Position numbers and translations under genes: made by a program. From the NCBI RefSeq assembly GCF_001591165.1, contig NZ_BCUG01000021.1:1-64000 (forward strand): a stretch of 64,000 nt of DNA, in the 5' to 3' direction. The notes beneath the pieces were generated by a model, which was not told the origin of the DNA, made no database searches, and worked only from the letters and a program-made list of their open reading frames with translations. Below are positions 13,675 through 38,027 of the stretch, piece by piece; position 1 is the first letter of the stretch, and each line of letters begins with the position of its first letter. Source of the stretch: Thauera butanivorans NBRC 103042. GTDB taxonomy: Bacteria > Pseudomonadota > Gammaproteobacteria > Burkholderiales > Rhodocyclaceae.

Positions 13675-14808
13675 TCACATCGCCTCCTTGGCCCATACGA
13701 CATTTCGCAACGGAATGATGGTTTCAAAGATCCGATAGCGGTAGTGATCCCAGTCATCAAGGCCAGTCAACGCCGCCAAATCAACTTTCGGAGCGGGCGA
13801 GTCCTCCGTTCCAGCCCAGGCACACAAGCCGGTTGGTTCGGGCGCATCTTCGGCACTGCATGCTTGGGAGACGGCCTCCTTCTGATACAGCGGATTGCGG
13901 GCGATCACTGCCACCCGCACTGCCTTGATGCGTTTGCGCCGCGCCATATCAATGGTATCCGCAGCCCACTCACCAGTGGCATTGACCCAAGCCACAACCT
14001 GGTTTTCGCTGCCAACTGCGGGGTTTTCGGCTGCAATACCATACTGGGCCTGCAGGCCGACAATATCAGCAGCAATCGGGTCGTCATTGAGCCTGAGTTC
14101 ACCTCCGACAGCAACGAAACTCCGAGGGGTAACGGGTTCAAAGCAGGACAAATGCACCGGAGCGGAGGAGGTGCTCGCAACGATGCTGCCACTCCCCTGA
14201 ACAAGATCGATGCCCGTTGTGTCGTCAAGCCCCTCTACCTTTCCGAGGAAACAACGGTTGTTCCCTCTGTCGGTGATCAGCATCCGATCATTGACGCGAC
14301 ATACCATGTTGTTATTGACGGAGAGTGCGCTACCTCCGCCTGAGACGGCAGTCACCTCGACAATCGCACCACCTGTCGGAGAGTTACCATAACGAATAAC
14401 GATTTCATCGCTTTCGTCATTTTCACCATCGGCAATGACAACTGGCACATAATCCACCGGCGCTGGACTGATGGAGCTATCACCTGTGATATTGACGATG
14501 GAGGGACAATCCATTGGCAACAATCGATTTTCACGATAATCATACAAAGCCATGCCGAAACCCGCCTGCTGAACCTCCCGTTGTATCGAATAGATGGCCA
14601 GTGCACTACTCGTTTGGGCGTCGGCTGTGCCGGAGGTGATCCTCTTCTGCCCTTCGAATCCGGAGAACGCTTGCATGATTGCCAGCGACGCAAGCAGCGC
14701 AACCACCATGCCCACCAGAATTTCGACCAGGCTGAAACCGCCTTGCCAGCTTCTTTTCCCTGCCTTGCCGAAAAACTCGACCAGGCGATATTCAGTCGAT
14801 ATCGTCAT
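13675..14808 (-). CDS. pilW: Type IV pilus assembly protein PilW
   Basis: Prepilin-like N-terminus GGFSLVEILVGMVVALLASLAIMQ. Length and operon position match PilW. The alternative start at 14826 overlaps pilV. Confidence 0.7.
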   Translation of the reverse strand: MTISTEYRLVEFFGKAGKRSWQGGFSLVEILVGMVVALLASLAIMQAFSGFEGQKRITSGTADAQTSSALAIYSIQREVQQAGFGMALYDYRENRLLPMDCPSIVNITGDSSISPAPVDYVPVVIADGENDESDEIVIRYGNSPTGGAIVEVTAVSGGGSALSVNNNMVCRVNDRMLITDRGNNRCFLGKVEGLDDTTGIDLVQGSGSIVASTSSAPVHLSCFEPVTPRSFVAVGGELRLNDDPIAADIVGLQAQYGIAAENPAVGSENQVVAWVNATGEWAADTIDMARRKRIKAVRVAVIARNPLYQKEAVSQACSAEDAPEPTGLCAWAGTEDSPAPKVDLAALTGLDDWDHYRYRIFETIIPLRNVVWAKEAM

Positions 14809-23960: not shown

Positions 23961-24881
23961 ATGAAGCTCTACTACGCCGACCATTTCGTGCTGCCGCTGC
24001 CGGAAGGCCATCGCTTTCCGATGGAGAAGTATTCGCGCCTGCGCGCCCGCCTGCTGGCCTGCGACGAATTCGACGAGATCGATTTCGTCGTGCCCGCCGC
24101 CGCCAGCGACGAGGAAATCCTGCGTGCGCACGACGCCGGCTATCTGGCGCGCGTCGTCGCCGGCACGCTGGATGCGGCAGAAGTCCGCCGCATCGGCTTT
24201 CCGTGGTCGGCGGCGATGGTCGAGCGTTCCCGCCGCTCGGCCGGCGCCACGCTCGCCGCCTGCCGCAGCGCACTGGCGGGCGACGGCGGCAGCGCCTGCG
24301 CCGCCAACCTGGCGGGCGGCACTCACCACGCCCACCGCGACTTCGGCTCAGGCTTCTGCGTCTTCAACGACGCCGCCATCGCCGCGCTGGCGATGCGCGC
24401 CGAAGGCCGGGTACGGCGCGTGGCGATCATCGACTGCGACGTACATCAGGGCGACGGTAGCGCCGCGATCCTCGCCGGCGAGCCGGAAGTCTTCACCTGC
24501 AGCCTGCACGGCGCGAAGAATTTCCCCTTCCGCAAGCAGACCAGCGACCTCGACATCGAGCTGCCTGACGACACCGGCGACGCCGCCTACCTGGCGGTAC
24601 TGGACCAGGCGCTGGCAACGACCTTCGCCCGCGCCCGCCCCGAACTCGTGATCTACCTCGCCGGCGCCGACCCCTATGCCGGCGACCGCCTCGGCCGCCT
24701 GGCGCTGAGCATCGACGGCCTGCGGGTGCGTGACGAGCGCGTGCTCGGCGCCTGCCACGGCGCCGGTGTGCCGGTCGCGATCGCGATGGCCGGCGGCTAC
24801 GCCGAGCCGATCGACGACACCGTCAGCATCCACTTCAACACCGTGACCACCGCCGCCCGCCTGCTGCGCAATGGCCGCTGA
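23961..24881 (+). CDS. Histone deacetylase-family amidohydrolase (AcuC/HDAC-like)
   Basis: Start MKLYYADHFVLPLPEGHRFPMEKY at 23961. GFCVFNDAAIA and IIDCDVHQGDG are HDAC zinc-site motifs. Confidence 0.8.
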   Translation: MKLYYADHFVLPLPEGHRFPMEKYSRLRARLLACDEFDEIDFVVPAAASDEEILRAHDAGYLARVVAGTLDAAEVRRIGFPWSAAMVERSRRSAGATLAACRSALAGDGGSACAANLAGGTHHAHRDFGSGFCVFNDAAIAALAMRAEGRVRRVAIIDCDVHQGDGSAAILAGEPEVFTCSLHGAKNFPFRKQTSDLDIELPDDTGDAAYLAVLDQALATTFARARPELVIYLAGADPYAGDRLGRLALSIDGLRVRDERVLGACHGAGVPVAIAMAGGYAEPIDDTVSIHFNTVTTAARLLRNGR

Positions 24882-24906
24882 ACGGCAGCCTGCGCAGGCA
24901 AGCGGG

Positions 24907-25761
24907 ATGCTGCTGATCGGCGTCGATTTCACCTCCGCACCACGCCGGGCCAAGCCGATCACTGCCGCTTTCGGCCGCCTCGCGGGCGAGGAGCCCCAAC
25001 AGAGGAGCGAACCGAGGGTCGAACTGACCGGCCTGGAAGCCTTCGACGACTGGCCCGCTTTCGAAGCCCTGCTCGCCCGTCCCGGCCCCTGGCTCGGCGC
25101 CTTCGATTTCCCCTTCGGCCTGCCGCGCGAAGCGGTCGTCGATCTCGGCTGGCCGCAAAGCTGGCCCGAGCTCGTCCGCCACTGCGCCGCCCTCGGCAAA
25201 GCCGGCTTCCGCGCCGCGCTCGACGCCTACCGTGAATCGCGCCCCGCCGGCCGCCGCTACGCGCACCGCGCCACCGACCTGCCGGCACGCTCGCATAGCC
25301 CGCTGAAGCTGGTGAATCCGCCGGTCGGGCTGATGTTCCTCGAAGGCGCCCCGCGCCTGCTCGCCGCCGGCCTCAGCCTGCCTGGCCTGCACACCGGCGA
25401 TCCGCAGCGGATCGCGCTGGAAGCCTATCCCGGCCTGCTTGCGCGCAGCATCACCCGCGACTCCTATAAAAGCGACGAAAAGCGCAAGCAGACGACCGAG
25501 CGCCGCAACGCCCGCGAGCGCATCCTTGCCGCTCTCGGCACGGGCCACCTGGCAAACGGCCTGCAACTGCAGTTCTCCCCCTCACAGGCCGGCAGCCTGA
25601 TCGACGACGCCAGCGGCGACCATCTCGATGCGGTACTTGCCCTGATGCAGGCAGCAGCCTGCGCACGCGCCGGCGCTCCCCGTTACGGCCTGCCGGCGCA
25701 GACCGATCCGCTCGAAGGCTGGATAGCCGGCACCCCCTATACCGGAAAACATCACATGTAA
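24907..25761 (+). CDS. DUF429 domain protein
   Basis: MLLIGVDFTSAPRRAKPIT resembles the DUF429 N-terminus. The ORF from 24871 overlaps the HDAC stop, so the likely start is ATG 24907. Confidence 0.6.
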   Translation: MLLIGVDFTSAPRRAKPITAAFGRLAGEEPQQRSEPRVELTGLEAFDDWPAFEALLARPGPWLGAFDFPFGLPREAVVDLGWPQSWPELVRHCAALGKAGFRAALDAYRESRPAGRRYAHRATDLPARSHSPLKLVNPPVGLMFLEGAPRLLAAGLSLPGLHTGDPQRIALEAYPGLLARSITRDSYKSDEKRKQTTERRNARERILAALGTGHLANGLQLQFSPSQAGSLIDDASGDHLDAVLALMQAAACARAGAPRYGLPAQTDPLEGWIAGTPYTGKHHM

Positions 25762-25784
25762 TCCCTTGCAGTATCACATGTGAT
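25751..25784 (+). promoter_or_regulatory. Putative operator: two ATCACATGT sites (25751 and 25773) 22 bp apart, the second inside the perfect palindrome ATCACATGTGAT, upstream of the yjfI-like cluster
   Basis: ATCACATGTAAT at 25751-25762 overlaps the DUF429 stop. ATCACATGTGAT at 25773-25784 is a perfect 12-bp palindrome. Both lie in the 40-bp gap before the cluster leader, next to a -10-like TAGAGT. Confidence 0.3.
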
Positions 25785-25990
25785 GCTCTAGAGTATGCCG
25801 CATGGAACGCAAGACATCAGCCTACTACCAACGCCTCCATCGCGCCCGTCTGCGTGAGCAAGGCCTGGTGAAGAAGGAGCTCTGGGTACTGCCCGAGCAC
25901 CTGGAAACGCTGTCCTCGATCGAAAAGAGCATGCGCCAGCCGCGGAGCGCGGCAGGTCTCGTACAACCAGGCCAGGAGAAGGAGAACACG

Positions 25991-26434
25991 ATGACGGAAA
26001 AAGCCCTGTGGACGGTCACCGCCCTGCACGACGCGCTGCGGAGCAACCCGCTGGTGGCTTCGGGCACGGCGCGGCTGGAACTGCTGGATGGCGCCGACCC
26101 CAGCCTGTTGCTGCAGATGCACGAATACGGCGACCTGCCGGTGTTCCTGGCGGTGGTCGGCGAGCACATCGTCGTCGAATCCCTGCTGTGGCCGGTGGCG
26201 CTGGTGCAGGACGTGGCGGTATTCAACGACCAGGTACTGCGCACCCACAAACTCTTCCCGCTGTCGAGCATCAGCATCGAGACCCTGCCCGACGGCGAGG
26301 AGGTCTACATCATGTTCGGCACCCTCAGCGCGGCATCGGGCCTGCCCGACGTGGTGCTCGAAATCGAGACCCTGGCCGACAACGTGATCCGCGCCACCGA
26401 AGCCTTCGAGCCGCAACTGCGCACGGCAGACTGA
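25991..26434 (+). CDS. DUF2170 (YjfI-like) protein
   Basis: MTEKALWTVTALHDA... is 147 aa, YjfI-family in size with a YIMFGTLSA motif. ATG 25991 is preceded by AGGAGAAGGAG. The ORF is open in-frame back to 25802 (63 extra codons), which could be a leader or an N-terminal extension. Confidence 0.65.
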   Translation: MTEKALWTVTALHDALRSNPLVASGTARLELLDGADPSLLLQMHEYGDLPVFLAVVGEHIVVESLLWPVALVQDVAVFNDQVLRTHKLFPLSSISIETLPDGEEVYIMFGTLSAASGLPDVVLEIETLADNVIRATEAFEPQLRTAD

Positions 26435-26471
26435 CGCAGCCAACCGACATTCAGACACCCGGAGAGCAAAG

Positions 26472-27164
26472 ATGAACATGTGGAGCAAGCTGGTGACCGC
26501 GCTGCGCGGCGGCGCACACGAATTGGGCGAAGCGGTGGTGGACGGCCAGGCGCTGCGCATTCTCGACCAGGAAATCCGCGACGCGGATGCCGACCTGCGG
26601 CGCTCGAAAGAAGCGCTGGCCGAGATCATGGCGAAGCAGAAGCTCGCCGAATCGCGCGTGAAGGAACAACAGGCCAGGATCGACGAATACGAGGACTACG
26701 CCATCAAGGCGCTCGAAGCGCAGGACGAGGCGCTGGCGCTGGAAGTCGCAGCCAAGATCGCCACGCTGGAAGCCAGCCGCAACGAGGAAAACGCAGTCGT
26801 TGAACAATACACCGCCAGCGTCGCCGACCTGCGCAAGTCCATCGCCCAGGCCGAGAGCCACATCAAGCGCCTGAAACAGCAGGTGGACATGGTGAAGGCG
26901 ACCGAAAGCGTGCAGCGCGCACAGGCCACCGTGGCCGAACGCTACAGCGGCGCGCAGACACGGGTGCAAACGGCGCTCGATTCGCTCGAACGCATCAAGC
27001 AGAAGCAGGCCGAACGCGGCGCGCGGATGCAGGCAGCGTCGGAGCTGGCACAGGAAAGCGGCGAGGATGCGCTCGACGCCAAACTGCGCAGCGCCGGCAT
27101 CTCCTCCGACACCGGCAGTGCCAACGCGGTGCTGGCACGGCTGAAGGAAAAGCGCGGCGCATGA
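26472..27164 (+). CDS. PspA/IM30-family protein (YjfJ-like)
   Basis: 230 aa, all-helical. LRILDQEIRDADADLRRSKEALAEIMAK...VDMVKATESVQRAQATVA...AVLARLKEKRGA closely parallels E. coli YjfJ and PspA/Vipp1. Confidence 0.85.
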   Translation: MNMWSKLVTALRGGAHELGEAVVDGQALRILDQEIRDADADLRRSKEALAEIMAKQKLAESRVKEQQARIDEYEDYAIKALEAQDEALALEVAAKIATLEASRNEENAVVEQYTASVADLRKSIAQAESHIKRLKQQVDMVKATESVQRAQATVAERYSGAQTRVQTALDSLERIKQKQAERGARMQAASELAQESGEDALDAKLRSAGISSDTGSANAVLARLKEKRGA

Positions 27165-27196
27165 GCTGTTGAAGACACCAGGCACGAGGGACGACC

Positions 27197-27835
27197 TTGG
27201 AAGCATTCCTGAACATTTCGCTTGCCTTTCCCACCGTGGTGTTCAGCTTCATGCTGGCCGTCATGGTGGTGTACTGGCTGATCGCGCTGCTGGGGCTGGC
27301 CGAGATCGAGCTGCTCGACAACCTCGCCCTGCCCGATGGCGACGGACTGCAACTGGAAGGGCTGGCGGGATTGCTGATGCGTCTGGGTCTGGCCGGCATT
27401 CCGCTGACCATCATCCTGACGGTGCTGGTGTTCTTCTGCTGGCTCATCAGCTACTACGCAGCCTGGTTGTTGTCTCCCCTGCTCGGCACAAGCGCAATGC
27501 GTTACCTGCTGGGCTCAGGCATCGCCGCCGGCGCCTTCCTCGCCGCGGTGCCGCTCACCTCGCTGGTGCTGCGGCCGGTGCGCGCCTTGCTGCGCAAGGC
27601 CGCGCCGCCAACCAGCAAAAGCCTGCTCGGCCAGGTCGGCGTGGTGCGCAGTCCCAGCGTGACCGCAGGGCAGGGCTACGCCTGGGTGGAAGACGGCGGC
27701 GCCGGCCTGATCCTGCAAGTGCGCAGTGCGACAGCAGAAGCTGAATTCCAGCGGGGTGCCCGGGTGATACTGATAGAATACGTCAATGACATGAATCTGT
27801 ACCGTGTCGTCGGCGAGGACGAATTCAGGGGCTGA
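27197..27835 (+). CDS. YqiJ-like inner membrane protein (DUF1449) with C-terminal NfeD-like OB-fold
   Basis: 212 aa. Multiple TM helices followed by a soluble segment, GQVGVVRSPSVTAGQGYAWVEDGGAGLILQVRSATAE...VILIEYVNDMNLYRVVG, typical of NfeD/YqiJ flotillin partners. Its stop TGA overlaps ATG 27835. Confidence 0.7.
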   Translation: MEAFLNISLAFPTVVFSFMLAVMVVYWLIALLGLAEIELLDNLALPDGDGLQLEGLAGLLMRLGLAGIPLTIILTVLVFFCWLISYYAAWLLSPLLGTSAMRYLLGSGIAAGAFLAAVPLTSLVLRPVRALLRKAAPPTSKSLLGQVGVVRSPSVTAGQGYAWVEDGGAGLILQVRSATAEAEFQRGARVILIEYVNDMNLYRVVGEDEFRG

Positions 27836-27903
27836 TGCCAGTCACATGCGACGAAACGTCCGGACTCCATGAACCAAGCAATGAACAAGCAGGGAGCATT
27901 TCA

Positions 27904-29967
27904 ATGAATCTGGCACAGGTCATGCCATTCCTGATCGGCGTGGGCACATTCGTACTGGTCGTGATCGGCCTTTTCGCGCTGTTCAAGGCCTTCTACATCA
28001 AGGTGCCGCAAGGCACGGCGCTGATCGTCAACGATCTGTCGGCGACACCCAAGGTGCATTTCACCGGCGCGCTGGTCTACCCGGTGATCTACAAGAAGGA
28101 GTTCATGCGGATCTCCCTGATCACGCTGGAAGTGGATCGGCGCGGCAAGGACGGCCTGATCTGCCGCGACAACATGCGCGCCGACATCACCGTGGCCTTC
28201 TACCTGCGCGTGAATGAAACCCAGGAAGACGTGCTGAAGGTCGCCAAGGCCATCGGCGTGGAGCGCGCATCGGACAAGGCGGCAGTCAACGAACTGTTCA
28301 ACGCCAAGTTCTCCGAGGCGCTGAAGACGGTCGGCAAGCAGATCGACTTCGTCAAGCTGTTCGAGAACCGCCAGGAATTCCGCGACCGCATCATCGAGGT
28401 GATCGGCAACGACCTCAACGGCTACGTCCTCGAGGACGTGGCGATCGACTACCTGGAGCAGACGCCAAAGGCCTCGCTCGACCCGCACAACATTCTCGAC
28501 GCCGAGGGCATCCGCAAGATCACCGAGCTGACCGCCGCGCAGAACATCATCACCAACGAACTCGAACGCAACGAGGAACTGGCGATCACCAAGAAGAACG
28601 TCGAGACGCGCGAAGCCATGCTCGCGCTGGAACGCCAGCAGGCCGACGCCGAAGCGCGGCAGAAGCGCGAAGTGGCGACCGTGCAGGCGCGCGAACAGGC
28701 CGAGATCCTGCGCGTGCAGGAAGAAGAACGCCTGAAGGCCGAGCAGGCGCGCATCCAGACCCAGGAACAGATCGACATCCGCGAGGAAAACGCCAACCGC
28801 GAAGTCGAGGTCGCCGAACAGAACCGCGAACGCGCCGTCGTCATCGAGAAGGAAAAGGTCGTGCGCGCGCAGCAACTGGAAATCGTCGCCCGCGAACGCG
28901 ACGTGGAACTCCAGCGCATCGAGAAGGAAAAGGCGCTGGAAGAGCAGCGCACCCACATCGCCAACGTGATCCGCGAACGCATCGCGGTCGAGAAGACCGT
29001 GGCAATCGAGGAAGAGCGCATCAAGGAAGTGCGCGAAGTGTCGGAAGCCGAACGCCTCAAGCAGGTGACGGTGCTGGCTGCGCAAGCCCAGGCGGAAGAG
29101 GAACTGGTGCGCCAGGTGAAGAAGGCCTCTGCCGACGAGGATTCGGCACGCCACCGCGCAGTGGAACTCACCGTGCTCGCGCAGGCCGAGCTGGAAGCTG
29201 CCGCCAAGCAGGCCGAAGCCAAGAAGAAGCTCGCCGAAGGCATCGAAGCCGAGCGCGCTGCACCAGGGCTGGCCGATGCACGCGTGCGCGAAGTGACTGC
29301 CGCGGCGATCGAGAAGGAAGGCATGGCCGCAGCGCATGTGACCGCCGAAAAACTGATCGCCGAAGCCAAGGGCGAGCAGGAAAAGGGCCTGGCGCAGGCG
29401 CGCGTCACCGAGGCACTGGCCGACGCCAAGGAGAAGGAAGGCCTGGCCGATGCCAAGGTCCTCGAAGAACGCCTGCTTGCCCAGGCGCGGGGCGAGAGCG
29501 AGCTCGGCGCAGCCAAGGCCAAGGTCACGCAGCAGGTCGGCGGAGCCGAGGCCGAAGTACTGCGCGAGAAGTTCATCGCCGAAGCCCAGGGCCTGGTGGA
29601 GAAATTCGCCGCGCTCGCCAGCCTCAGCGACAACGCCCGCGCCCACGAGGAATTCCGCATGCAGCTCGAGAAGAACTTCGAACAGGCGATCGCCGGCATC
29701 GATGCCAGCAAGCACATCGCCCGCGAGCAGGCCGAAGTGCTGTCGTCGGCGCTGTCCAAGGCCAACATCGACATCGTCGGCGGCGAAGGCGCCTTCTTCG
29801 ACCAGTTCGCCAAAGGCTTGTCGGTCGGCAAGTTCATCGAGGGCGTGGCCGGCAAGAGCCCCATCGTCGACGAGCTGCTGCAGCGCTTCACCAGCGGCGG
29901 CAAGGCAGACCTGCCCAGGGCGCTGGACCAGGCCACGGCGCCTGGGCAAGCCGACCGCAATTCGTGA
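27904..29967 (+). CDS. Flotillin-family SPFH/Band-7 protein (YqiK/FloT-like)
   Basis: N-terminal TM segment (LIGVGTFVLVVIGLFALF). SPFH domain (KVPQGTALIV...RADITVAFYLRVNE...). Long EA-rich coiled-coil flotillin tail. Start at ATG 27904 with GGGAG SD. An alternative coupled start is ATG 27835 (TGATG overlap with the upstream gene). Confidence 0.9.
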   Translation: MNLAQVMPFLIGVGTFVLVVIGLFALFKAFYIKVPQGTALIVNDLSATPKVHFTGALVYPVIYKKEFMRISLITLEVDRRGKDGLICRDNMRADITVAFYLRVNETQEDVLKVAKAIGVERASDKAAVNELFNAKFSEALKTVGKQIDFVKLFENRQEFRDRIIEVIGNDLNGYVLEDVAIDYLEQTPKASLDPHNILDAEGIRKITELTAAQNIITNELERNEELAITKKNVETREAMLALERQQADAEARQKREVATVQAREQAEILRVQEEERLKAEQARIQTQEQIDIREENANREVEVAEQNRERAVVIEKEKVVRAQQLEIVARERDVELQRIEKEKALEEQRTHIANVIRERIAVEKTVAIEEERIKEVREVSEAERLKQVTVLAAQAQAEEELVRQVKKASADEDSARHRAVELTVLAQAELEAAAKQAEAKKKLAEGIEAERAAPGLADARVREVTAAAIEKEGMAAAHVTAEKLIAEAKGEQEKGLAQARVTEALADAKEKEGLADAKVLEERLLAQARGESELGAAKAKVTQQVGGAEAEVLREKFIAEAQGLVEKFAALASLSDNARAHEEFRMQLEKNFEQAIAGIDASKHIAREQAEVLSSALSKANIDIVGGEGAFFDQFAKGLSVGKFIEGVAGKSPIVDELLQRFTSGGKADLPRALDQATAPGQADRNS

Positions 29968-30007
29968 CCCGCGGACAGACCCTGATCACACTGTGTCAGC
30001 AGTGAAA

Positions 30008-30100
30008 GTAGGATGGGTAGAGCGCAGCGAAACCCATCAATGGCAAAGGCAGAGTTTTTACCGATGTGATGGGTTTCGCCTTCGGCTCTACCCATCCTAC
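30008..30100. repeat. 93-bp imperfect inverted repeat (about 32-bp arms, 27-nt spacer) in the flotillin / giant-gene intergenic region
   Basis: Left arm gtaggatgggtagagc-gcag-cgaaacccatca (30008-30039). Right arm tgatgggtttcg-ccttcg-gctctacccatcctac (30067-30100). The arms are near-perfect reverse complements. Confidence 0.45.
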
Positions 30101-30241
30101 CCCGCCACTCCTGCAAAAGTATTCAGCAGGTAGGTCGCAGACTCCATACACGACACGTCACCCATCTCGCCGACACCCTCTTGCCTACCCCCATATCCGC
30201 CTTCAATTCAAGCAAGCCAATTCCCGAAGCGAAGAACGACG

Positions 30242-33200
30242 ATGTCCGACACCCTGCCCTCATCCGACTCCGCCCTCGTCGATCAGGCCGTCGCCAGCGG
30301 CGGCGCCTATGAAGTGCTGCGCAAGCGGCTGGCCGAACAAGGTGCCGGCTTGCGCGGCCTGGCGTCGCAGATCAACGCCGGCCGCATCGAGGAATTCGGC
30401 AGCAGCGGCATGGCCTTGCTGGGGCGCTTCCGCCTGCGCAGCGAGAACAACTGCGTCGGCCGCGACGTCGTGCAGGTCGGCGACACGCTGCTGTTCGGCT
30501 ACAACGTGTTCATCGGGCTGAAGCAGGAAACCCGCATCGAAGACGTGTTCTCGCTGTACCGGCTGGAAGAGACCGAGGCCGGCTACGACGTGGTGCCGCT
30601 CGACGCGGCGCAGAGTTTTCTCGGCATCACCAGCTTCGTGCAGGACTTCCGCGAGCTGTACACCTACTACAAGGACGCCCGCCTGCTGCAACTGGCGGTA
30701 CGCGACGGCAAGCTGCTGGCGAGCTTCCAGATCGGCGCGCGCATCACCGACATCCGCGTGTTCCGCTGGTCGGTGTCGCCCGATGGCCGCGAGGTGCGCT
30801 ACATCGACAACCGTGGCGAGCGCGACATCGCCCTGCCGGCACCGTTCGACTTCGAATGGATACGCGCCGGGCGCGACAGCGCGGTGCATGGCCGCCACCC
30901 GCACCTGAACATCCTCGACACCGTGTTCGTCGAGACCCTGGGCGGCGATCTCACCGTCAAGGTGGAAAACAACACCGAGGACGGCATGGGCATCTACCGC
31001 GAAGCGGTGGTGGACAAGACCCAGTCGCTCGACGACGCCACGGTGGAATACGCCCGCGTCGGCAGCCTGATCCTGCTCAAGATCCTGCCGTATCGCGAAG
31101 AGCAGTGGCGCTATCTGGTGTTCAACACGCTGACGCAGAAGGTGCAGCGCATCGACGCCATCGGCCTGGCCTGCATCCAGTTGCCGGAAGACCACGGCAT
31201 CATCTTCCCCGGCGGCTATTACTTGCAGAACGGCGAAAGCAAGGCCTTCGAGCAGCAGATGGAAGGCATGCGCTACCGCCGCAGCATCCGTTCGCCCAAC
31301 GGCGAAGACGTGCTGTACGTGTTCTACGAGCCGCACAGCGGCCGCATGGCGCTGTTCAACTACAACCTCATCGAGCGGCAGTTGCAGGCGCCGCTGATCG
31401 GCCACGGCTACGCGCGGCTGGAAGACGGGCGCATGGTGTTGTTCAGCTCCGAATCCGACGAGCCAACACGCATCCATCCGATGCAGGTGTGGCGCACGCC
31501 CTTCTTCAGCGAGGAGTTCGCCGCACGCCAGGCGCCCGGCGGCAACTTCTTCGGCCGCATCGGCAACGCCGAACTGGTGCGCGGCATCTCCGAACTGTTC
31601 AGCCTGGTGCGCGAGATCGGCGCCGCGGAAGTGTCGGTGCAGCGCTACCAGCGGCTCATCGACCAGGCGCGGCGGCTGTTCGACCGCTATCACTGGATGG
31701 CCGAAGCCTGCGACGGCGCGCTGGCCCGGACGCTGCACGAGATCGTCGCCTCGGGCGAAGCGGTGCTCGACGAATTCGAGAAAGTCGAAAGCATCCGCGC
31801 CGCCTCGGCGCGCGCAATGGCCGAAGCCGAAACCCGCCACAAGGCCTTGCTGACACAATTGCGCCAGCAGGATTGGAAGCACGTGCAGGACTACGTGCAG
31901 GCGCTGCAGCGCATCGCCGCCGAGCGCGGCCACCTGCTCAGCGTGCGCGACCTGCGCTACGTCGACACCGCGCGCATCGACGCGATGGAAAGCGAGCTGC
32001 TCGCCAGCCAGGCCAGCGTGGCCGCCGACACCGCCGCGTTCCTGTCCAGCGAGGAAGCGCTGCTGCCCTATGGCGAGCGCCTCGCCGAACTCGACCAGCA
32101 GGCGCAGAAGGCCGACACCGGCATGCAGCTGGACGAACCGCTGCAGGCCATGCAGGCGATGTCCGGCGAACTCGACATGCTGTCCGAACTGATGGCCACC
32201 CTCAAGGTGGATGACGCCACCCAGCGCACCCGTATCGTCGAGGCCATCTCGGCCATCTACGCGCGCCTCAACCAGGCCAAGGCGCGCGCCGAGCAGCGCC
32301 GCCGCGGCCTCGGCGCCAGCGAACGGGTGGCGCAGTTCGGCGCGCAGTTCTCGCTGTTCGGCCAGAGCATCGTCAGCGCCTTGGCGCTGGCGCAGGACCC
32401 GGAACGCTGCGACGAACAATTGTCGCGCCTGCTGATCCAGCTCGAAGAGCTGGAAAGCCAGTTCGGCGAGCACGAGGCCTTTCTTGGCGACATCGTCGCC
32501 AAGCGCGAAGAACTGCTGGAGAGCTTCGAAAGCCACAAGCAATCCTTGCTGGATGAGCGCCAGCGCAAGGCACAGTCGGTGCAGGACGCCGCCGTGCGCA
32601 TTGTCGATGGCCTGGGCCGGCGCACCGAGCGGCTGGCGACGCTGGACGAACTGAACGCCTTCTTCGCCGGCGATCCGCTGATCCTCAAGTTGCGCGAACT
32701 GGCCGAGCGGCTGCGCGAACTCAAGGACAGCGTCAAGGCCGACGACGTCGAGGCGTGCCTCAAGGGCGTGCGCGACCAGGCGGTACGCTCGCTGCGCGAC
32801 CGCAGCGAGCTGTTCGAGGGCGGCGGCAACGTGATCCGCCTGGGCCGCCACCGCTTCAGCGTCAACAACCAGGTGCTCGACCTCACGCTGATGCCGCGCG
32901 GCGACACGCTGTACCTGCATCTGGTCGGCACCGACTACATGGAAGCGCTGCACGACCCGCAACTGGCCGCGCTGCGGCCGTTCTGGGACGTGTCGCTGGC
33001 CTCAGAGTCGCCGCAACTGTACCGCGGCGAATATCTGGCGCTGCAAGTCATCGATGCCGCCGAGCGGCAGGCCGACGGCTGGGACCGCGACCAGTTGCAC
33101 CGCCTGCTGCTGCAACCCGAGGCGCTCGACCGCGCGCTGCGCGAATTCGCTGCGCCGCGCTACCGCGAAGGCTACGAGCGCGGCATCCACGACCACGACG

Positions 33201-35599
33201 CCGCGCGCATCCTGCGGGCCTTGGTGCCGATGCGCGAAGCCGCCGGCGTGCTCGCCACGGCACCGGACGCGCGGGCGCTGGCGGTGCTGTTCTGGGGGCA
33301 GCGCAACCAGGTGCTCAACCCCGAGGCCAGCGCCGCGCTGGCGCAATGGCCGGCGCGGGCCCGCCATGCAATAGACATGCGGCGGCTGTTCGGCAGCGCG
33401 GCTGCCCGCCGCAGCCTGGTGGACGACATGGCCGCGGCGCTGCGGACCTTCATCGAGCAGCACGCGCTCGCCATCGACCCCGCATTGAGTGCGCCGGCAG
33501 CCGACTACCTGCTGAGCGAGCTGGGTGATGCGGCTCCGCGTTTCAGCTTCACCGGGCAGGCGCGGCAACTGGTGGAAGCGCTGCAGGCACGGCTGGAGGC
33601 CGACGGGCGCTGGAGCGGTCTGCTGCAGGACTGGCGCCACAGCGCCGGCGACGGCCTGCCGCTGGCAGCGCGCTGGCAAAGCGCGCTGCAATGGGCGCAG
33701 GCACTGTGTGCCGCGTCCGGCGATGCCAACGCCGGGTTGGCCGCGCTCGGCGACTACGCCAGCGAGGCCGCCGCCTGGCTGGTGGCGGCCGAGGCCGTGC
33801 CGCACCGCTTCAGCAGCGTGGCCTTGCGCGCCAGCGTGACCGGCCTGCTCGGCGAGCACCCGCGCATCGTCGATGGCGCACTGGTGCTGGCGGTGGACGA
33901 CGTGGCACGGCGCGAGCACTGGCACCGCCACGAATTCATGCCGCAGCTGCAACGCTACCAGCAGTTGCGCCACGACATCCTGGTGCGCGAGCGCGAGGCG
34001 ATGCGGCTGGACGAGTTCAAGCCGCGCCCGCTCAGCAGCTTCGTGCGCAACAAGCTGATCAACGACGTCTATCTGGGCGTGATCGGCGACAACCTCGCCA
34101 AACAGATGGGCACCGCCGGCAGCAACAAGCGCAGCGACCTGATGGGCCTGCTGATGATGATCTCGCCACCCGGCTACGGCAAGACCACGCTGATGGAATA
34201 CGTGGCGCACCGCCTCGGGCTGATCTTCATGAAGATCAACGGCCCGGCGCTGGGCCACGAGGTGCGCTCGCTCGACCCGGCCCAGGCACCCGACGCCACC
34301 TCGCGCCAGGAGCTGGAAAAGCTCAACCTGGCGCTGGAAATGGGCAACAACGTGATGCTGTATGTGGACGACATCCAGCACACCCACCCGGAATTCCTGC
34401 AGAAGTTCATCTCGCTGTCGGACGGCACGCGCCGCATCGAGGGTGTATGGAAAGGGCGCACGCGCACCTACGACATGCGCGGCAAGAAATTCTGCGTGGT
34501 GATGGCCGGCAACCCCTACACCGAATCCGGCGAGGTCTTCAAGATTCCCGACATGCTCGCCAACCGCGCCGACATCTACAACCTCGGCGACGTGCTGGGC
34601 GGCATGGAGGAAGTGTTCAAACTCAGCTACATCGAGAACAGCCTCACCAGCAACCCGGTGCTGGCGCCGCTGGCTACGCGCGACCTGAACGATCTCTACC
34701 GCATCATCGACAAGCTGCAAGGCAAGGAATTTTCCGCCAACGCGCTCAGCCACGGCTACAGTGCCGCCGAACTGCGCGACATCGAAACCACGCTGCAGCG
34801 CATGCTGCAGGTGCGCGAAGTGGTCTATCGCATCAACCAGCAATACATCGCCAGCGCCGCCCAGGCCGAGGCCTACCGCACGGAGCCGCCGTTCAAGCTG
34901 CAAGGCTCCTACCGCAACATGAACAAGCTAGCGGAAAAGATCTCGGCGGTAATGAACGACGCCGAGCTCCAGCAATTGCTGGCCGACCACTACGTCGGCG
35001 AGGCCCAACTGCTCACCAGCGGGGCGGAGGAAAACCTGCTCAAGCTCGCCGAACTTCGCGGCAGCCTGAGAGGCGACGATGCCGTTCGCTGGGCACAGAT
35101 CAAGCGTGACTACCTGCGCAACAAGGCCATCGGCGGCAGCGACGCCGACGTCGCCGGCAAGATCGTCGTGCAATTGATGGACCTGGTCGAAGCCACCCGC
35201 CACACCGCCGCACTGGCCGAACAGGCGGCCACTCGGCCCGAGGAAGCACTACCCTGGGCGGAAATCCTCGCTGCCCTGCTGCAATCGGCCAAGGCACAGA
35301 CCCAGCAGGCCCGCCACGTCGCCGCGCTGGCCCGTGCGAGAACCAGCCAGCCGCTACAGACCCTCGCTACCTTGCTCCAGCAATCCCTGGAACCGATCCG
35401 GACCCACCTGGACGAAAGCCGCAAGCAGCAGCTCGGCCTTCACCGCGTATTGCTGGAAATCGCCGAACGCCTGCGCGTGGTCGCCGAGGCCGAAGCATCC
35501 GGCGCCACCCAAGACAGCGAGCGCAAGCTGCGCTTGCTGGATCGCGCCTTCGCCCGCATGCTCGAAGAAGACACACACCCTGGAGAGAATGCGGGTTGA
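30242..35599 (+). CDS. Giant multidomain protein (1785 aa): N-terminal domain of unknown function, long helical/coiled-coil middle, single C-terminal AAA+ ATPase module (AAA_5/MoxR/dynein-like)
   Basis: Walker A MMISPPGYGKTTLMEY (about aa 1310). Walker B NVMLYVDDIQ. Sensor/arginine region FCVVMAGNPYTESGEVFKIPDMLANRADIYNL resembles AAA_5-type modules. Even codon usage over 5.3 kb. The antisense ORFs are Arg/Ala/Gly-rich noise. Confidence 0.8.
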   Translation: MSDTLPSSDSALVDQAVASGGAYEVLRKRLAEQGAGLRGLASQINAGRIEEFGSSGMALLGRFRLRSENNCVGRDVVQVGDTLLFGYNVFIGLKQETRIEDVFSLYRLEETEAGYDVVPLDAAQSFLGITSFVQDFRELYTYYKDARLLQLAVRDGKLLASFQIGARITDIRVFRWSVSPDGREVRYIDNRGERDIALPAPFDFEWIRAGRDSAVHGRHPHLNILDTVFVETLGGDLTVKVENNTEDGMGIYREAVVDKTQSLDDATVEYARVGSLILLKILPYREEQWRYLVFNTLTQKVQRIDAIGLACIQLPEDHGIIFPGGYYLQNGESKAFEQQMEGMRYRRSIRSPNGEDVLYVFYEPHSGRMALFNYNLIERQLQAPLIGHGYARLEDGRMVLFSSESDEPTRIHPMQVWRTPFFSEEFAARQAPGGNFFGRIGNAELVRGISELFSLVREIGAAEVSVQRYQRLIDQARRLFDRYHWMAEACDGALARTLHEIVASGEAVLDEFEKVESIRAASARAMAEAETRHKALLTQLRQQDWKHVQDYVQALQRIAAERGHLLSVRDLRYVDTARIDAMESELLASQASVAADTAAFLSSEEALLPYGERLAELDQQAQKADTGMQLDEPLQAMQAMSGELDMLSELMATLKVDDATQRTRIVEAISAIYARLNQAKARAEQRRRGLGASERVAQFGAQFSLFGQSIVSALALAQDPERCDEQLSRLLIQLEELESQFGEHEAFLGDIVAKREELLESFESHKQSLLDERQRKAQSVQDAAVRIVDGLGRRTERLATLDELNAFFAGDPLILKLRELAERLRELKDSVKADDVEACLKGVRDQAVRSLRDRSELFEGGGNVIRLGRHRFSVNNQVLDLTLMPRGDTLYLHLVGTDYMEALHDPQLAALRPFWDVSLASESPQLYRGEYLALQVIDAAERQADGWDRDQLHRLLLQPEALDRALREFAAPRYREGYERGIHDHDAARILRALVPMREAAGVLATAPDARALAVLFWGQRNQVLNPEASAALAQWPARARHAIDMRRLFGSAAARRSLVDDMAAALRTFIEQHALAIDPALSAPAADYLLSELGDAAPRFSFTGQARQLVEALQARLEADGRWSGLLQDWRHSAGDGLPLAARWQSALQWAQALCAASGDANAGLAALGDYASEAAAWLVAAEAVPHRFSSVALRASVTGLLGEHPRIVDGALVLAVDDVARREHWHRHEFMPQLQRYQQLRHDILVREREAMRLDEFKPRPLSSFVRNKLINDVYLGVIGDNLAKQMGTAGSNKRSDLMGLLMMISPPGYGKTTLMEYVAHRLGLIFMKINGPALGHEVRSLDPAQAPDATSRQELEKLNLALEMGNNVMLYVDDIQHTHPEFLQKFISLSDGTRRIEGVWKGRTRTYDMRGKKFCVVMAGNPYTESGEVFKIPDMLANRADIYNLGDVLGGMEEVFKLSYIENSLTSNPVLAPLATRDLNDLYRIIDKLQGKEFSANALSHGYSAAELRDIETTLQRMLQVREVVYRINQQYIASAAQAEAYRTEPPFKLQGSYRNMNKLAEKISAVMNDAELQQLLADHYVGEAQLLTSGAEENLLKLAELRGSLRGDDAVRWAQIKRDYLRNKAIGGSDADVAGKIVVQLMDLVEATRHTAALAEQAATRPEEALPWAEILAALLQSAKAQTQQARHVAALARARTSQPLQTLATLLQQSLEPIRTHLDESRKQQLGLHRVLLEIAERLRVVAEAEASGATQDSERKLRLLDRAFARMLEEDTHPGENAG

Positions 35600-36174
35600 G
35601 CCGCATCAGCAAGACGATGAAACCCCTGCTTCCCGAATGGCTCCACCCCTGGCTCGAATTCATCACGCTCGGCCTGCAGGTCATGCTGATCCTGCTCGCC
35701 GCCTGGGTGCTGAACATGCTGGTCCGGCGCATCGTCCGCCGCCTGAGCGAGCGCTACAACCTGCCTCCCGAGCTGACCCTCATCGTGCGCCGAGGCATCG
35801 CATTCATCATCTATGCCGGCGCGCTGCTGACGATCCTGGACCGCTTCGGCGTGTCGGGCACCGTGCTGTGGACCGCCTTCACCGGCTTTGCCGCAGTCGC
35901 CGCCGTCGCCTTCTTCGCCGCCTGGAGCGTGCTGTCCAACATCTTCTGCACGCTGCTGATCTTCACCACCCGGCCCTTCCGCCTCCACGATCACATCGAG
36001 GTGATCGAGAACGGCGAGAAGCCCGGACTGAAGGGACAGGTGACCGACATCAACCTGATCTACACCACGCTGCACGAGCGCCTGCCCGACGGCGGCGACA
36101 CCGTGCTGCACATCCCCAACAGCCTGTTCTTCCAGCGCGCGATCCGCCGCTGGCGCAGCCTGCCGCCGCTTTGA
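35596..36174 (+). CDS. Short MscS-family mechanosensitive channel protein (192 aa)
   Basis: AAWSVLSNIFCTLLIFTTRPFRLHDHIEVIENGEKPGLKGQVTDINLIYTTLHERLPDGGDTVLHIPNSLFF matches the MscS pore helix TM3 plus beta-domain. TTG start 35596 overlaps the giant gene's TGA (TTGA). An alternative ATG is at 35617. Confidence 0.8.
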   Translation: MSRISKTMKPLLPEWLHPWLEFITLGLQVMLILLAAWVLNMLVRRIVRRLSERYNLPPELTLIVRRGIAFIIYAGALLTILDRFGVSGTVLWTAFTGFAAVAAVAFFAAWSVLSNIFCTLLIFTTRPFRLHDHIEVIENGEKPGLKGQVTDINLIYTTLHERLPDGGDTVLHIPNSLFFQRAIRRWRSLPPL

Positions 36175-36197
36175 GCCAGACTGTCCGGCGGACGTGA

Positions 36198-36536
36198 TCA
36201 AGCCTTGCGCACGAACTCCGACTTCAGCTTCATCGCGCCAATGCCGTCGATCTTGCAGTCGATGTCGTGGTCGCCGTCGATCAGGCGGATGTTCTTGACC
36301 TTGGTGCCGACCTTCACCACCAGCGACGAGCCCTTCACCTTCAGGTCCTTGATCACGGTGACGCTGTCGCCGTCCTGCAGCACGTTGCCATTGGCGTCCT
36401 TGAACACCTTTTCGGCCTCGCCCGCTTCCTCCGCGGCTTGCGGCCACTCGTGCGCACATTCGGGGCAGACGTAGTTGATGCCGTCCTCGTAGGTGTATTC
36501 GGAGCTGCATTCGGGACACTTGGGCAGACTGCTCAT
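36198..36536 (-). CDS. phnA: PhnA-family zinc-ribbon protein (YjdC-like)
   Basis: [31 protein letters not shown]...[36 protein letters not shown] is near-identical in pattern to E. coli PhnA. 112 aa. Confidence 0.85.
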
Positions 36537-36547
36537 GCTTCTTTCCT

Positions 36548-37270
36548 TTATTCGATCGTGATCCGCATCGACGGCGCCGGCAGGCCCCTGCGCTTGCGCT
36601 CGGCCTCGATCAGTTTGGCGATGTCGGTGTTGCGGTTCTGCAGCGCCCAGGCGTCGGCGGACAGGCCGGCGTCGTTCAGCGCGTTCAGGTCGGTCTCCGG
36701 CACTGCGAGCAGGCGGCGCACCACGCCGATATGGCCGTTGCGCGCGGCAAGCATCAGCGGCGTGGCACGGTTCGGTGCCCGGGCATTGACGTCCGCGCCG
36801 GCGGCGAACAGTGCATCGAGCATGGATTCGCGGCCCTCGAAGGCGGCGTAGTGCAGCGGCGCCCAACCGTCGTGATTCACTTTGGCACCGGCCTTCAGCA
36901 GCGCGCGGACGACATCGTCGTAGCCGCCCAGCACCGCCAGCATCAGCGCCGAATCGCCGCTGGGGTTTTGCTGGTCGATCGGCACGCCGCGCTGCAGCAA
37001 GGCTTCGACCGTGGCGGCCTGGCCTTCGCGTGCGGCGAGGATCAGCAAGGTGTTGCCGCTGGCATCGACGCTGTTCGGATCGATGCCGCCGTCGATCAGC
37101 CTGGCGAGGCCTTTCGCATCGCCCAGCACGGCGGCGTTGCGCGCATCGTCGAAGGTGCCGGCCGCATGCGCGCTCAGGCTGAGGGTGGCGATGGCGGCCG
37201 CGGCGAGCAGGCGGCGGACCGAATGCTTGCGATTCTGGCGCAGGGAGGTTTCAGGCTGGTCTTTGTGCAT
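36548..37270 (-). CDS. Ankyrin-repeat protein with signal peptide
   Basis: [18 protein letters not shown] signal peptide, then repeated ANK motifs ([48 protein letters not shown]). Start ATG 37270. Confidence 0.8.
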
Positions 37271-38027
37271 GGTGGAAAAGTCGGAAGAAGTTGTCGGTAC
37301 AGGCCTGTTCGATGCGGGCCAGCGGTTCGTCGCGCAGGCGGGCGATTTCTTCGGCGACATGCACGACCCAGGCGGGCTCGTTGGTCCTGCCGCGATGCGG
37401 CACCGGTGCCAGATAGGGCGCATCGGTCTCGATCAGCAGGCGGTCGAGCGGCACACGGCGGGCGACCTCCTTCAGTTCCCTGGCGTTGCGGAAGGTGACG
37501 ATGCCGGAGAAGGAAATGTAGAAACCCAGCTCGAGCGCGGCGTCGGCCACGTCCTGGCTTTCGGTGAAGCAGTGCATGACGCCACCGGCCTCGCCGGCCT
37601 TTTCCTCGCGCATCAGCCGCAGCGTGTCCTCGGCGGCGCTGCGGGTATGGATGACGAGCGGCTTGCCGGTTTCGCGCGCGGCGCGGATGTGGGTGCGGAA
37701 GCGCTCGCGCTGCCATTCGGGCGCGTCCTTCTGCCAGTGGTAGTCCAGGCCGGTCTCGCCGATGGCGACCACCTTGGGATGGTCGGCCAGCGCGACCAGG
37801 CGGGCGACGTCTGGCTCATCGCAGTCGGCATTGTCGGGATGCACGCCCACCGAAGCCCACAGGTGTGGATGCCGCTCGGCCAGCGCGCGCACCTGCGGAA
37901 AATCCTCGAGCTTGACGCTGATGCACAGCGCGGTGCCGACGTCGTTGGCCGCCATGTTGGCGAGCACTTCGTCCTCGCGGGCGATGAGATCGGGAAAATC
38001 GAGATGGCAGTGGGAATCGACGAACAT
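37251..38027 (-). CDS. tatD: TatD-family metal-dependent DNase/hydrolase (YcfH-like)
   Basis: MFVDSHCHLDF...IGETGLDYH...PLVIHTR...LLIETDAPYL are canonical TatD motifs. Start ATG 38027. Confidence 0.9.
   Translation of the reverse strand: MFVDSHCHLDFPDLIAREDEVLANMAANDVGTALCISVKLEDFPQVRALAERHPHLWASVGVHPDNADCDEPDVARLVALADHPKVVAIGETGLDYHWQKDAPEWQRERFRTHIRAARETGKPLVIHTRSAAEDTLRLMREEKAGEAGGVMHCFTESQDVADAALELGFYISFSGIVTFRNARELKEVARRVPLDRLLIETDAPYLAPVPHRGRTNEPAWVVHVAEEIARLRDEPLARIEQACTDNFFRLFHHAQRPA

What the first reader, a model, noticed from the sequence alone, without database searches (positions are those of the whole stretch)
35596..36174. Minimal MscS-like channel (192 aa) translationally coupled to the giant ATPase
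The protein has the MscS pore-lining helix and the beta-domain but no large C-terminal cytoplasmic vestibule (E. coli MscS is 286 aa). Its TTG start overlaps the giant gene's TGA. This implies fixed-ratio co-expression of a tension-gated channel with an AAA+ motor and flotillin. I would not expect that pairing for a stand-alone osmotic safety valve.
Basis: partly seen in the sequence, partly recalled or inferred. Interest (0 to 1): 0.55.

Follow-up and report, generated by a model that had tools for sequence, protein, structure and literature searches.

The report
Mini-MscS gene beside inserted stress operon
The short MscS-type channel gene is real, but it is an ordinary stand-alone gene of this Thauera lineage that sits next to the giant ATPase only because a five-gene PspA/AAA+ membrane-stress cassette was recently inserted just upstream of it.

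Summary
The ORF is real. It encodes a miniature MscS-family protein with three predicted helices and the MscS beta-domain, and it lacks the cytoplasmic cage. It belongs to a large family of 170-220 aa proteobacterial proteins. The conserved start is ATG 35617 (185 aa), 17 nt after the giant gene's TGA, not the overlapping TTG 35596. The upstream genes form the known bacABCDE / PspA cassette: DUF2170, PspA, a 212-aa protein, a 710-aa protein the literature calls band-7/flotillin, and the DUF3686 AAA+ giant.

The linkage is not conserved:
- 0 of 80 genomes carrying 52-86% identical mini-MscS genes have any cassette gene within 10 kb.
- 0 of 81 giant-ATPase loci have a short MscS downstream. Twenty have a PLD gene instead, including P. 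aeruginosa.
- Thauera sp. Sel9, whose flanks are about 93-95% identical, has the same DUF429-like / mini-MscS / yjdM locus with a 112-nt intergenic region where the window has a 9.9-kb insert.

The pairing therefore comes from a lineage-specific insertion. That insertion removed the channel's native upstream region, so co-transcription with the cassette in this strain is plausible. Interest is low.

The parts
35617..36174 (+). Mini-MscS coding sequence (185 aa): TM1, TM2, the pore-lining TM3a/b and the beta-domain. No alpha-beta domain and no C-terminal barrel.
   Evidence: Pfam PF00924 hit. Conserved MKxLLPxW start in 19 homologues. PDB and E. coli MscS alignments. AF2 model with Foldseek hits to MscS. 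dN/dS 0.10-0.17.
35596..35616 (+). Most likely non-coding.
   Evidence: TTGA overlap read directly. No counterpart in Sel9 or T. linaloolentis. 5/17 differences in L173 against 7/558 in the CDS, p = 8e-6.
35582..35587 (+). GGAGAG Shine-Dalgarno-like motif inside the 3' end of the giant gene, 8 nt before the TTG and 29 nt before the ATG.
   Evidence: Read directly. Identical in the four metagenomic copies.
25732..35614 (+). 9,883-nt insert carrying bacABCDE. It replaces the 112-nt native intergenic region found in Thauera sp. Sel9 and T. linaloolentis.
   Evidence: blastn breakpoints: window 25731 with L086 9886, and window 35615 with L086 9999. Same pattern in L001. Junction alignment.
25751..25794 (+). 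Two tandem 22-nt ATCACATGT(A/G)AT boxes with -35/-10-like hexamers, upstream of bacA. This is the cassette's own conserved regulatory region.
   Evidence: the repeat finder D1. Conserved in the Rhodocyclaceae MAG L082 and P. aeruginosa L081.
25802..26434 (+). bacA (DUF2170 / CesT-Tir-like).
   Evidence: PF09938, E 2e-47. NCBIfam BacA 315 bits against a cut-off of 300.
26472..27164 (+). bacB (PspA/IM30).
   Evidence: PF04012, E 3e-53.
27197..27835 (+). bacC, a 212-aa membrane protein (YqiJ/YuaF-like according to the literature).
   Evidence: No Pfam hit. Conserved next to bacD in related loci. PMC11237479.
27835..29967 (+). bacD, a 710-aa protein with a TM segment and a long coiled coil (band-7/flotillin according to the literature).
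   Evidence: No Pfam or PDB sequence hit. A homologue lies upstream of the giant in 57/59 loci. PMC11237479.
30242..35599 (+). bacE, the giant DUF3686 + DUF7902 + AAA+ ATPase (1785 aa).
   Evidence: PF12458 E 7e-202, PF25472, AAA_5. 5783 homologues.
24871..25761 (+). Left-flank resident gene (DUF429-like). Its last codons were replaced by the insertion.
   Evidence: PF04250. 94.6% nt identity to Sel9 up to 25731. Junction alignment.
36198..36536 (-). Right-flank resident gene yjdM/phnA, convergent with the mini-MscS gene.
   Evidence: PF03831 and PF08274 on residues 113-222 of the 222-aa ORF. The Sel9 homologue is 112 aa in the same position.

Best explanation
The gene encodes a stand-alone miniature MscS-family membrane protein of 185 aa. 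It has three helices, including the pore-lining TM3 with an invariant Phe at the gate position, followed by the beta-domain, and it has no cytoplasmic cage.

By analogy with the solved miniature MscS channels (TcMscS, microsporidian MscS2, and the 171-aa PDB entries), it most likely forms a heptameric, lipid- or tension-gated pore without side portals. This step is inferred.

It is a resident chromosomal gene of Thauera and of many Beta- and Gammaproteobacteria, and it is found in clade-specific housekeeping contexts.

In the window's lineage, a horizontally acquired five-gene cassette with its own conserved promoter/operator was inserted between the DUF429-like gene and the mini-MscS ATG. The cassette is bacABCDE: DUF2170, PspA, YqiJ-like, band-7/flotillin-like and the DUF3686 AAA+ giant. 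The insertion replaced the 112-nt native upstream region. These steps are shown.

As a consequence, the channel gene is now probably transcribed by read-through from the cassette. This step is inferred. The adjacency is a by-product of the insertion, not a conserved functional module.
For: Identity of the protein:
- Searches support the MscS-family assignment.
- The family is broad: 4429 hits, and 1377 50%-identity cluster representatives, 438 of them at E <= 1e-10 and mostly 170-220 aa.

No linkage seen from the channel side:
- In 80 genome loci from Xanthomonadales, Comamonadaceae and Rhodocyclales, no BacA-E hit exceeds 29 bits within +/-10 kb.
- Neighbouring genes differ by clade: LysS, Hsp70-like, DksA-like, a GGDEF regulator, NagZ.

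No linkage seen from the ATPase side:
- Of 81 loci with at least 1 kb downstream of the giant, 20 have a PLD gene and 0 have a short MscS.

Insertion:
- Sel9 flanks are 94.6% and 92.8% identical up to window 25731 and from window 35615.
- Sel9 and the outgroup T. linaloolentis are collinear through a homologous 112-nt intergenic region.
- The closest giant homologue outside the lineage is only 79% identical and sits at a different locus, between pilY1 and a PPDK-like gene.
- The cassette carries a regulatory region conserved as far as P. aeruginosa.

The gene is still functional: dN/dS 0.10-0.17.

The same arrangement was found only in four contigs about 99% identical to the window.

Literature: the bac operon and its PLD member (PMC10948618, PMC11237479); miniature MscS channels are functional heptamers (PMC12334622, PMC11262690).
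Against: - The native upstream region is gone, yet the gene remains under purifying selection, so it must be expressed. Expression from the cassette transcript could have acquired adaptive value.
- A good SD-like GGAGAG lies 8 nt before the overlapping TTG, and gene callers picked that start in all four metagenomic copies.
- No transposase, integrase or terminal repeats mark the insert, and its GC content equals that of the flanks. The insertion mechanism is therefore unknown.
- Channel activity, oligomeric state and transcription were not tested.
Confidence: 0.8

Rival explanations
1. Adaptive operon capture. The mini-MscS has become a genuine sixth member of the PspA / flotillin-like / AAA+ system in this Thauera population. 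It occupies the variable 'sixth-gene' slot that PLD fills elsewhere, and it is co-induced and possibly translationally coupled, so that a release valve is produced together with the membrane-repair machinery.
For: - A 17-nt gap (or a 4-nt overlap if the TTG is used), the SD-like GGAGAG, and no terminator-like site between the genes.
- The native promoter region was removed, yet dN/dS is 0.10-0.17.
- The arrangement persists in four environmental samples.
- The sixth slot is variable in other lineages.
Against: - The arrangement is confined to one population of about 99% ANI.
- 0/80 and 0/81 in the two reciprocal surveys.
- The spacer evolves freely.
- There is no evidence for any protein-protein link. 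Co-transcription after an insertion is expected by default and needs no selection.
Confidence: 0.12
2. Ancestral linkage. The cassette-plus-channel arrangement is old, and the relatives lost the cassette by deletion.
For: Indels cannot be polarised from two genomes alone. The GC content of the insert equals that of the flanks.
Against: - Sel9 (sister lineage, about 94% nt identity) and T. linaloolentis (outgroup, 82-88%) share a homologous, collinear intergenic region. Loss would therefore need two identical precise deletions that regenerated the same sequence.
- No other lineage shows the linkage.
- The nearest external giant homologue is 79% identical and lies at another locus.
Confidence: 0.03
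3. The protein is not a channel. It is a cage-less MscS remnant that acts as a membrane-tension or lipid sensor, or as a scaffold, or is non-functional.
For: - It lacks the alpha-beta domain and barrel that form the vestibule and stabilise the EcMscS heptamer.
- It scores far below the NCBIfam MscS equivalog cut-offs.
- The authors of the microsporidian MscS2 paper suggest that extreme compaction may imply a new function (PMC11262690).
Against: - The pore helix and beta-domain are strongly conserved across hundreds of clusters, and selection is purifying.
- TcMscS has an even smaller fold and retains mechanosensitive channel activity (PMC12334622).
- 171-aa MscS entries are deposited as 7-chain assemblies.
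Confidence: 0.1

Closest known systems
E. coli MscS (286 aa; PDB 2OAU, 6RLD) and the MscS family (Pfam PF00924)
   Same: - TM2, the pore-lining TM3a/TM3b and the beta-domain align: Ec 69-167, 31% identity.
- Motifs such as SxLSN and RPF(R) are conserved.
- The best Foldseek hits are MscS structures.
   Different: - It ends right after the beta-domain, with no alpha-beta domain and no C-terminal barrel, so there is no cytoplasmic cage or side portals.
- Phe replaces Leu at the gate-equivalent position, and there is one extra residue before SxLSN.
- It scores 22-28 bits against NCBIfam MscS cut-offs of 321-400.
Miniature MscS channels: Trypanosoma cruzi TcMscS (165 aa, PDB 9BGQ; PMC12334622), Nematocida displodere MscS2 (PMC11262690), and 171-aa MscS entries 9SDB/9SDG/9SEH
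   Same: - The same minimal architecture: a membrane core plus the beta-domain, without the cage.
- The 171-aa entries are the best PDB sequence hits, covering query 29-186 against chain 19-160.
- TcMscS is recovered by Foldseek.
- TcMscS is a functional heptameric mechanosensitive channel without side portals.
   Different: - Only about 20% identity, so these are not orthologues.
- The window protein keeps three helices, whereas TcMscS has an N-helix plus two short membrane helices.
- The bacterial family itself has not been characterised in the papers I found.
bacABCDEF operon of P. aeruginosa (PA3732-PA3727; PMC2587700, PMC10948618) and the CesT/Tir-PspA + band-7/flotillin + AAA+ + YqiJ/YuaF operon class (PMC11237479)
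   Same: - Window genes 25802-35599 are collinear homologues of bacA-bacE: 52%, 63%, 50%, 78% and 67% identity to P. aeruginosa.
- The upstream ACATGT boxes are conserved.
   Different: - In P. aeruginosa and Lysobacter the sixth gene is a PLDc_2 (HKD phospholipase D-like) protein, as PMC11237479 also notes.
- No MscS is described in either paper, and none was found in 81 loci.
- Here the position after bacE is occupied by a pre-existing resident gene.

Membership tests
MscS family (Pfam PF00924 / MscS-like channels) | Beta-domain (MS_channel_2nd) match above Pfam's gathering score | tested here: met
   32.4 bits against a cut-off of 20.2, residues 112-184.
MscS family (Pfam PF00924 / MscS-like channels) | Pore-lining TM3a/TM3b helix preceding the beta-domain, alignable with solved MscS channels | tested here: met
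   - Aligned with EcMscS 69-167, with YnaI, MscS and the 171-aa MscS, and with AtMSL1.
- Conserved AVxFxAxWSVLSN...RPFR block.
MscS family (Pfam PF00924 / MscS-like channels) | Three-TM core with N-out topology | tested here: inconclusive
   - The AF2 model has helices 14-54, 58-83 and 88-125.
- The Arg-rich TM1-TM2 loop fits the positive-inside rule.
- No dedicated topology predictor was run.
MscS family (Pfam PF00924 / MscS-like channels) | C-terminal alpha-beta domain and beta-barrel forming the cytoplasmic cage with side portals (canonical MscS) | tested here: not met
   The protein ends about 8 residues after the beta-domain. No alignment extends beyond Ec residue about 176.
MscS family (Pfam PF00924 / MscS-like channels) | Homo-heptameric assembly and tension-activated conductance | not testable with these tools
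   This needs a multimer model or cryo-EM, and patch clamp.
NCBIfam MscS equivalog/subfamily (NF047602, PRK10334) | Score at or above the curated cut-off | tested here: not met
   28 bits against 400, and 22 bits against 321.
Miniature (cage-less) MscS channels such as TcMscS, MscS2 and the 171-aa PDB entries | Architecture limited to the membrane core plus the beta-domain | tested here: met
   PMC12334622; PMC11262690.
Miniature (cage-less) MscS channels such as TcMscS, MscS2 and the 171-aa PDB entries | Close sequence relationship (orthology) to a characterised member | tested here: not met
   The best PDB sequence hit has E 1.3e-3. Identity to TcMscS is about 20%.
bac / CesT-PspA-flotillin-AAA+ operon (as a component) | Conserved co-occurrence with the DUF3686 giant ATPase across genomes | tested here: not met
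   0/80 mini-MscS loci have BacA-E. 0/81 giant loci have a short MscS. Sel9 lacks the cassette at the same locus.
bac / CesT-PspA-flotillin-AAA+ operon (as a component) | Homology to the described sixth gene (bacF) | tested here: not met
   The sixth gene in P. aeruginosa and Lysobacter is PLDc_2, 230-235 aa.
bac / CesT-PspA-flotillin-AAA+ operon (as a component) | Co-transcription with bacA-E in this organism | not testable with these tools
   - A 17-nt gap, no terminator-like or sigma-70-like site at the junction, and the native upstream region is deleted.
- This is suggestive only. It needs RT-PCR or RNA-seq.

The most novel reading that the evidence does not exclude
In this Thauera population, the insertion of the PspA / flotillin-like / AAA+ cassette deleted the promoter of a resident miniature MscS. 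This placed a tension-gated pore under envelope-stress control, 17 nt behind the giant ATPase. Selection has since kept this arrangement as a functional unit, with a release valve co-produced with membrane-repair machinery. If so, it would be a natural, datable example of operon capture that creates a new module.
Probability: 0.1. Interest if true: 0.4.

Novelty: new member of a known kind. Interest (0 to 1): 0.15.

Why it matters
The practical value is corrective. The apparent channel-motor module should not be propagated as a system, because the adjacency is a recent insertion artefact confined to one population.

Two modest points remain of interest:
- Proteobacteria carry a large, well-conserved family of cage-less, roughly 185-aa MscS proteins. 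None of the papers I found characterises it. It would be a convenient bacterial counterpart to TcMscS for asking what the minimal mechanosensitive core is.
- The locus gives a clean before-and-after pair (Thauera sp. Sel9 and this genome) for how a mobile PspA/AAA+ stress cassette lands and takes over the transcription of a neighbouring gene.

Tried and rejected
- PADLOC and PHROGs scans of the channel and cassette proteins gave no defence-system or phage family for the channel, the giant, BacC or BacD. PspA gave only coiled-coil noise.
- An Rfam scan of 24500-37500 found nothing.
- The sigma-70 consensus scan of 24500-37500 found no sites. Terminator-like sites were at chance level and none lay between bacE and the channel gene.
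- A sigma-54 consensus search gave matches at chance level and none upstream of bacA. I could not reproduce for this genome the sigma-54 site proposed for P. aeruginosa in PMC10948618.
- A search for terminal direct or inverted repeats at the insert ends found nothing transposon-like.
- The 'flotillin' identity of BacD could not be confirmed. There was no Pfam hit even at E = 10 and no PDB sequence hit. The single-sequence model had pLDDT below 50 over the putative SPFH region, so no fold search was run.
- A literature search for 'DUF3686' gave 0 papers.
- I compared mismatch density along the four roughly 99%-identical contigs to see whether the cassette and the channel have different histories within the population. 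The pattern was patchy and not decisive.
- I considered that P. aeruginosa bacF might be the same gene. This is rejected, because bacF is a PLD-family protein.
Full report
OBSERVATION. The window has an ORF at 35596..36174 (+, TTG, 192 aa). Its TTG overlaps the TGA (35597-99) of a 1785-aa ORF at 30242..35599, and a GGAGAG motif lies 8 nt upstream. The product hits Pfam PF00924, the MscS beta-domain (32.4 bits against a cut-off of 20.2, residues 112-184). It matches solved MscS-type channels: 171-aa 'small-conductance mechanosensitive channel' entries 9SDB/9SDG/9SEH, YnaI, EcMscS and AtMSL1. The protein stops about 8 residues after the beta-domain, so the alpha-beta domain and C-terminal barrel that build the MscS vestibule are absent. 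An AlphaFold2 model (pLDDT 76) shows three helices followed by a small beta-domain. Its top Foldseek hits in the PDB are MscS structures (probability 1.0), and T. cruzi TcMscS is also recovered. The descriptive part of the finding is therefore correct.

START CODON. Nineteen homologues align from a conserved MKxLLPxW, which corresponds to ATG 35617. Named homologues from Thauera and Azoarcus are 184-185 aa. Nucleotide homology to Thauera sp. Sel9 and T. linaloolentis begins at 35615/35617. Among four metagenomic copies of this exact arrangement, one (L173) differs at 5 of the 17 nt between the TGA and the ATG, but at only 7 of 558 nt in the CDS (Fisher p = 8e-6). The seven extra 'codons' are therefore not under coding constraint. 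The likely gene is 35617..36174 (185 aa), 17 nt after the giant's stop. The TTG/TGA overlap exists in the sequence, but it is probably not the start.

THE NEIGHBOURS. The five upstream + strand genes are:
- DUF2170, which NCBIfam calls 'biofilm formation regulator BacA' (315 bits against a cut-off of 300)
- PspA/IM30
- a 212-aa protein
- a 710-aa protein
- the DUF3686 + DUF7902 + AAA+ giant

This is the bac cluster of P. aeruginosa (PA3732-PA3727). RT-PCR showed it to be a six-gene operon, bacABCDEF (PMC10948618; first described in PMC2587700). [quoted passage not shown] Neither paper mentions an MscS. In P. aeruginosa and Lysobacter the gene after the giant is a 230-235-aa PLDc_2 protein. BacF is therefore a PLD, not this gene.

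IS THE LINKAGE CONSERVED? I tested it from both sides.

(a) From the channel side. A scan of one genome per species returned 593 relatives, and the best 80 were kept (52-86% identity; Xanthomonadales, Comamonadaceae, Rhodocyclales and others), each with +/-10 kb of flanking sequence. tblastn with the window's BacA-E found nothing in any of them, and even at E = 10 the best hit was 29 bits. Their neighbours differ by clade: lysyl-tRNA synthetase, an Hsp70-like protein, a DksA/TraR-type zinc finger, a GGDEF response regulator, NagZ. This is the pattern of a stand-alone gene.

(b) From the ATPase side. I took eight genomic loci and 80 metagenomic loci encoding homologues of the giant. Of these, 81 have at least 1 kb downstream of the giant. 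Twenty carry the PLD gene there, and none carries a short MscS. One has a long canonical MscS-like gene (more than 479 aa) 2.9 kb away. A BacD homologue lies upstream of the giant in 57 of 59 loci with enough sequence, so the cassette core itself is conserved.

HOW THE ADJACENCY AROSE. Thauera sp. Sel9 is 94.6% identical to the window over 9.3 kb on the left, up to window 25731. It is 92.8% identical over 8 kb on the right, from window 35615. Its gene order is MurJ, deacetylase, a DUF429-like gene, 112 nt, the mini-MscS (185 aa), then yjdM on the opposite strand. T. linaloolentis is 82-88% identical to both and has the same order. It is collinear with Sel9 straight through the intergenic region. 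The window therefore carries a 9,883-nt insert (25732-35614) that replaces the 112-nt native intergenic region. It even replaces the last codons of the DUF429-like gene, whose stop now lies inside the cassette's first operator box.

One insertion in the window's lineage explains the data. The loss scenario would need two identical precise deletions. The cassette brought its own regulatory region, two tandem 22-nt ATCACATGT(A/G)AT boxes, and this is conserved in a Rhodocyclaceae MAG and in P. aeruginosa. The nearest giant homologue outside the lineage is 79% identical and sits at a different locus, between pilY1 and a PPDK-like gene. No mobile-element hallmarks were found, and the GC content of the insert matches the flanks, so the insertion mechanism is unknown.

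The arrangement giant / mini-MscS / yjdM was found again only in four contigs that are about 99% identical to the window. That corresponds to one species-level population.

CONSEQUENCE IN THIS STRAIN. The native upstream region is gone. The gap to the giant's stop is 17 nt, and no terminator-like or sigma-70-like site lies at the junction. The gene is still under purifying selection: dN/dS is 0.17 against Sel9 and 0.10-0.14 within the lineage. Read-through transcription from the cassette is therefore the simplest way it can be expressed. This is an inference and was not tested. Co-expression in this strain is plausible, but it is what any such insertion would produce. It is not evidence for a channel-motor machine.

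WHAT THE PROTEIN LIKELY DOES. The family is large: 4429 hits in the 90% clusters, and 1377 representatives of 50% clusters, of which 438 have E <= 1e-10 and most are 170-220 aa. It conserves the pore helix and beta-domain motifs (AVGFxAxWSVLSN, RPFRxGD, VPNNLFFQK) and an invariant Phe at the position that aligns with the EcMscS gate region. Cage-less MscS proteins are known to assemble as heptamers. TcMscS retains mechanosensitive gating without side portals (PMC12334622), and microsporidian MscS2, which is of bacterial origin, forms a heptameric channel (PMC11262690). The 171-aa PDB entries are deposited as seven-chain assemblies. By analogy, the most likely function is a small heptameric, lipid- or tension-gated pore. 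This is inferred, and I found no characterised bacterial member.

VERDICT. The gene is a new member of a known kind, sitting next to a known operon because of a recent lineage-specific insertion. Interest is low.

Noticed in passing
window 25751-25794 (also L082 about 3575-3620, L081 about 3670-3715): Two tandem 22-nt boxes lie just upstream of bacA: ATCACATGTAATCCCTTGCAGT and ATCACATGTGATGCTCTAGAGT. Each has an ACATGT palindromic core, and TTGCAG-17 nt-TAGAGT hexamers are embedded in them. The boxes are conserved in a Rhodocyclaceae MAG and in P. aeruginosa, so they are probably the cassette's operator/promoter. No sigma-54 consensus was found here.
   Followed up: partly
window 25732-25761: The insertion breakpoint lies inside the last codons of the DUF429-like gene (24871..25761). 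Its C-terminus changes from ...GWIAGV* in Sel9 to ...GWIAGTPYTGKHHM*, and the new stop codon sits inside the first ACATGT box.
   Followed up: partly
window 27835-28824 (BacD N-terminal 330 aa): This region is 83-94% identical between Thauera, P. aeruginosa, Lysobacter, Lampropedia and Corticibacter, far more conserved than BacA-C or the giant. Yet the protein has no Pfam-A or PDB sequence match at all. A single-sequence AF2 model was too poor to test the SPFH/flotillin fold.
   Followed up: partly
L084/L085 4641-7986; L088 6421-7890; L081 13260-13952; L087 13405-14112: The cassette is plastic in other genomes.
- Lampropedia has a hydrolase, an NYN protein and an MNT/HEPN toxin-antitoxin pair inserted between bacD and bacE, and an RDD-family gene between bacB and bacC.
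- Corticibacter has an opposite-strand protoglobin-GGDEF gene between bacD and bacE.
- A PLD gene follows the giant in 20 of 81 loci.
   Followed up: partly
window 36198-36866 (- strand): The 222-aa ORF listed here is over-extended. The YjdM/PhnA zinc-ribbon and PhnA domains occupy residues 113-222, and the Sel9 homologue is 112 aa, so the real gene is about 36198-36536. A yjdM gene also lies on the opposite strand shortly after the giant in Lampropedia (L084 13962-14351), which is probably coincidence.
   Followed up: no
window 25975-25993: Inside the bacA ORF there is a strong GGAGAAGGAG ribosome-binding motif 6 nt before an in-frame ATG (25991, codon 64), just ahead of the DUF2170 domain. 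The NCBIfam BacA model nevertheless covers the whole 210-aa ORF. This could be an alternative start or an internal translation site.
   Followed up: no
PDB entries 9SDB, 9SDG, 9SEH and related: The best PDB sequence matches are 171-aa 'small-conductance mechanosensitive channel' chains deposited as 7-chain entries. These are solved cage-less MscS structures of similar size. I could not identify the source organism or the paper.
   Followed up: no
L106 about 13000-14500: One giant-ATPase locus from a metagenome has a long canonical MscS/MscK-like gene (more than 479 aa) about 2.9 kb downstream of the giant. It is a single case and does not belong to the short family.
   Followed up: partly
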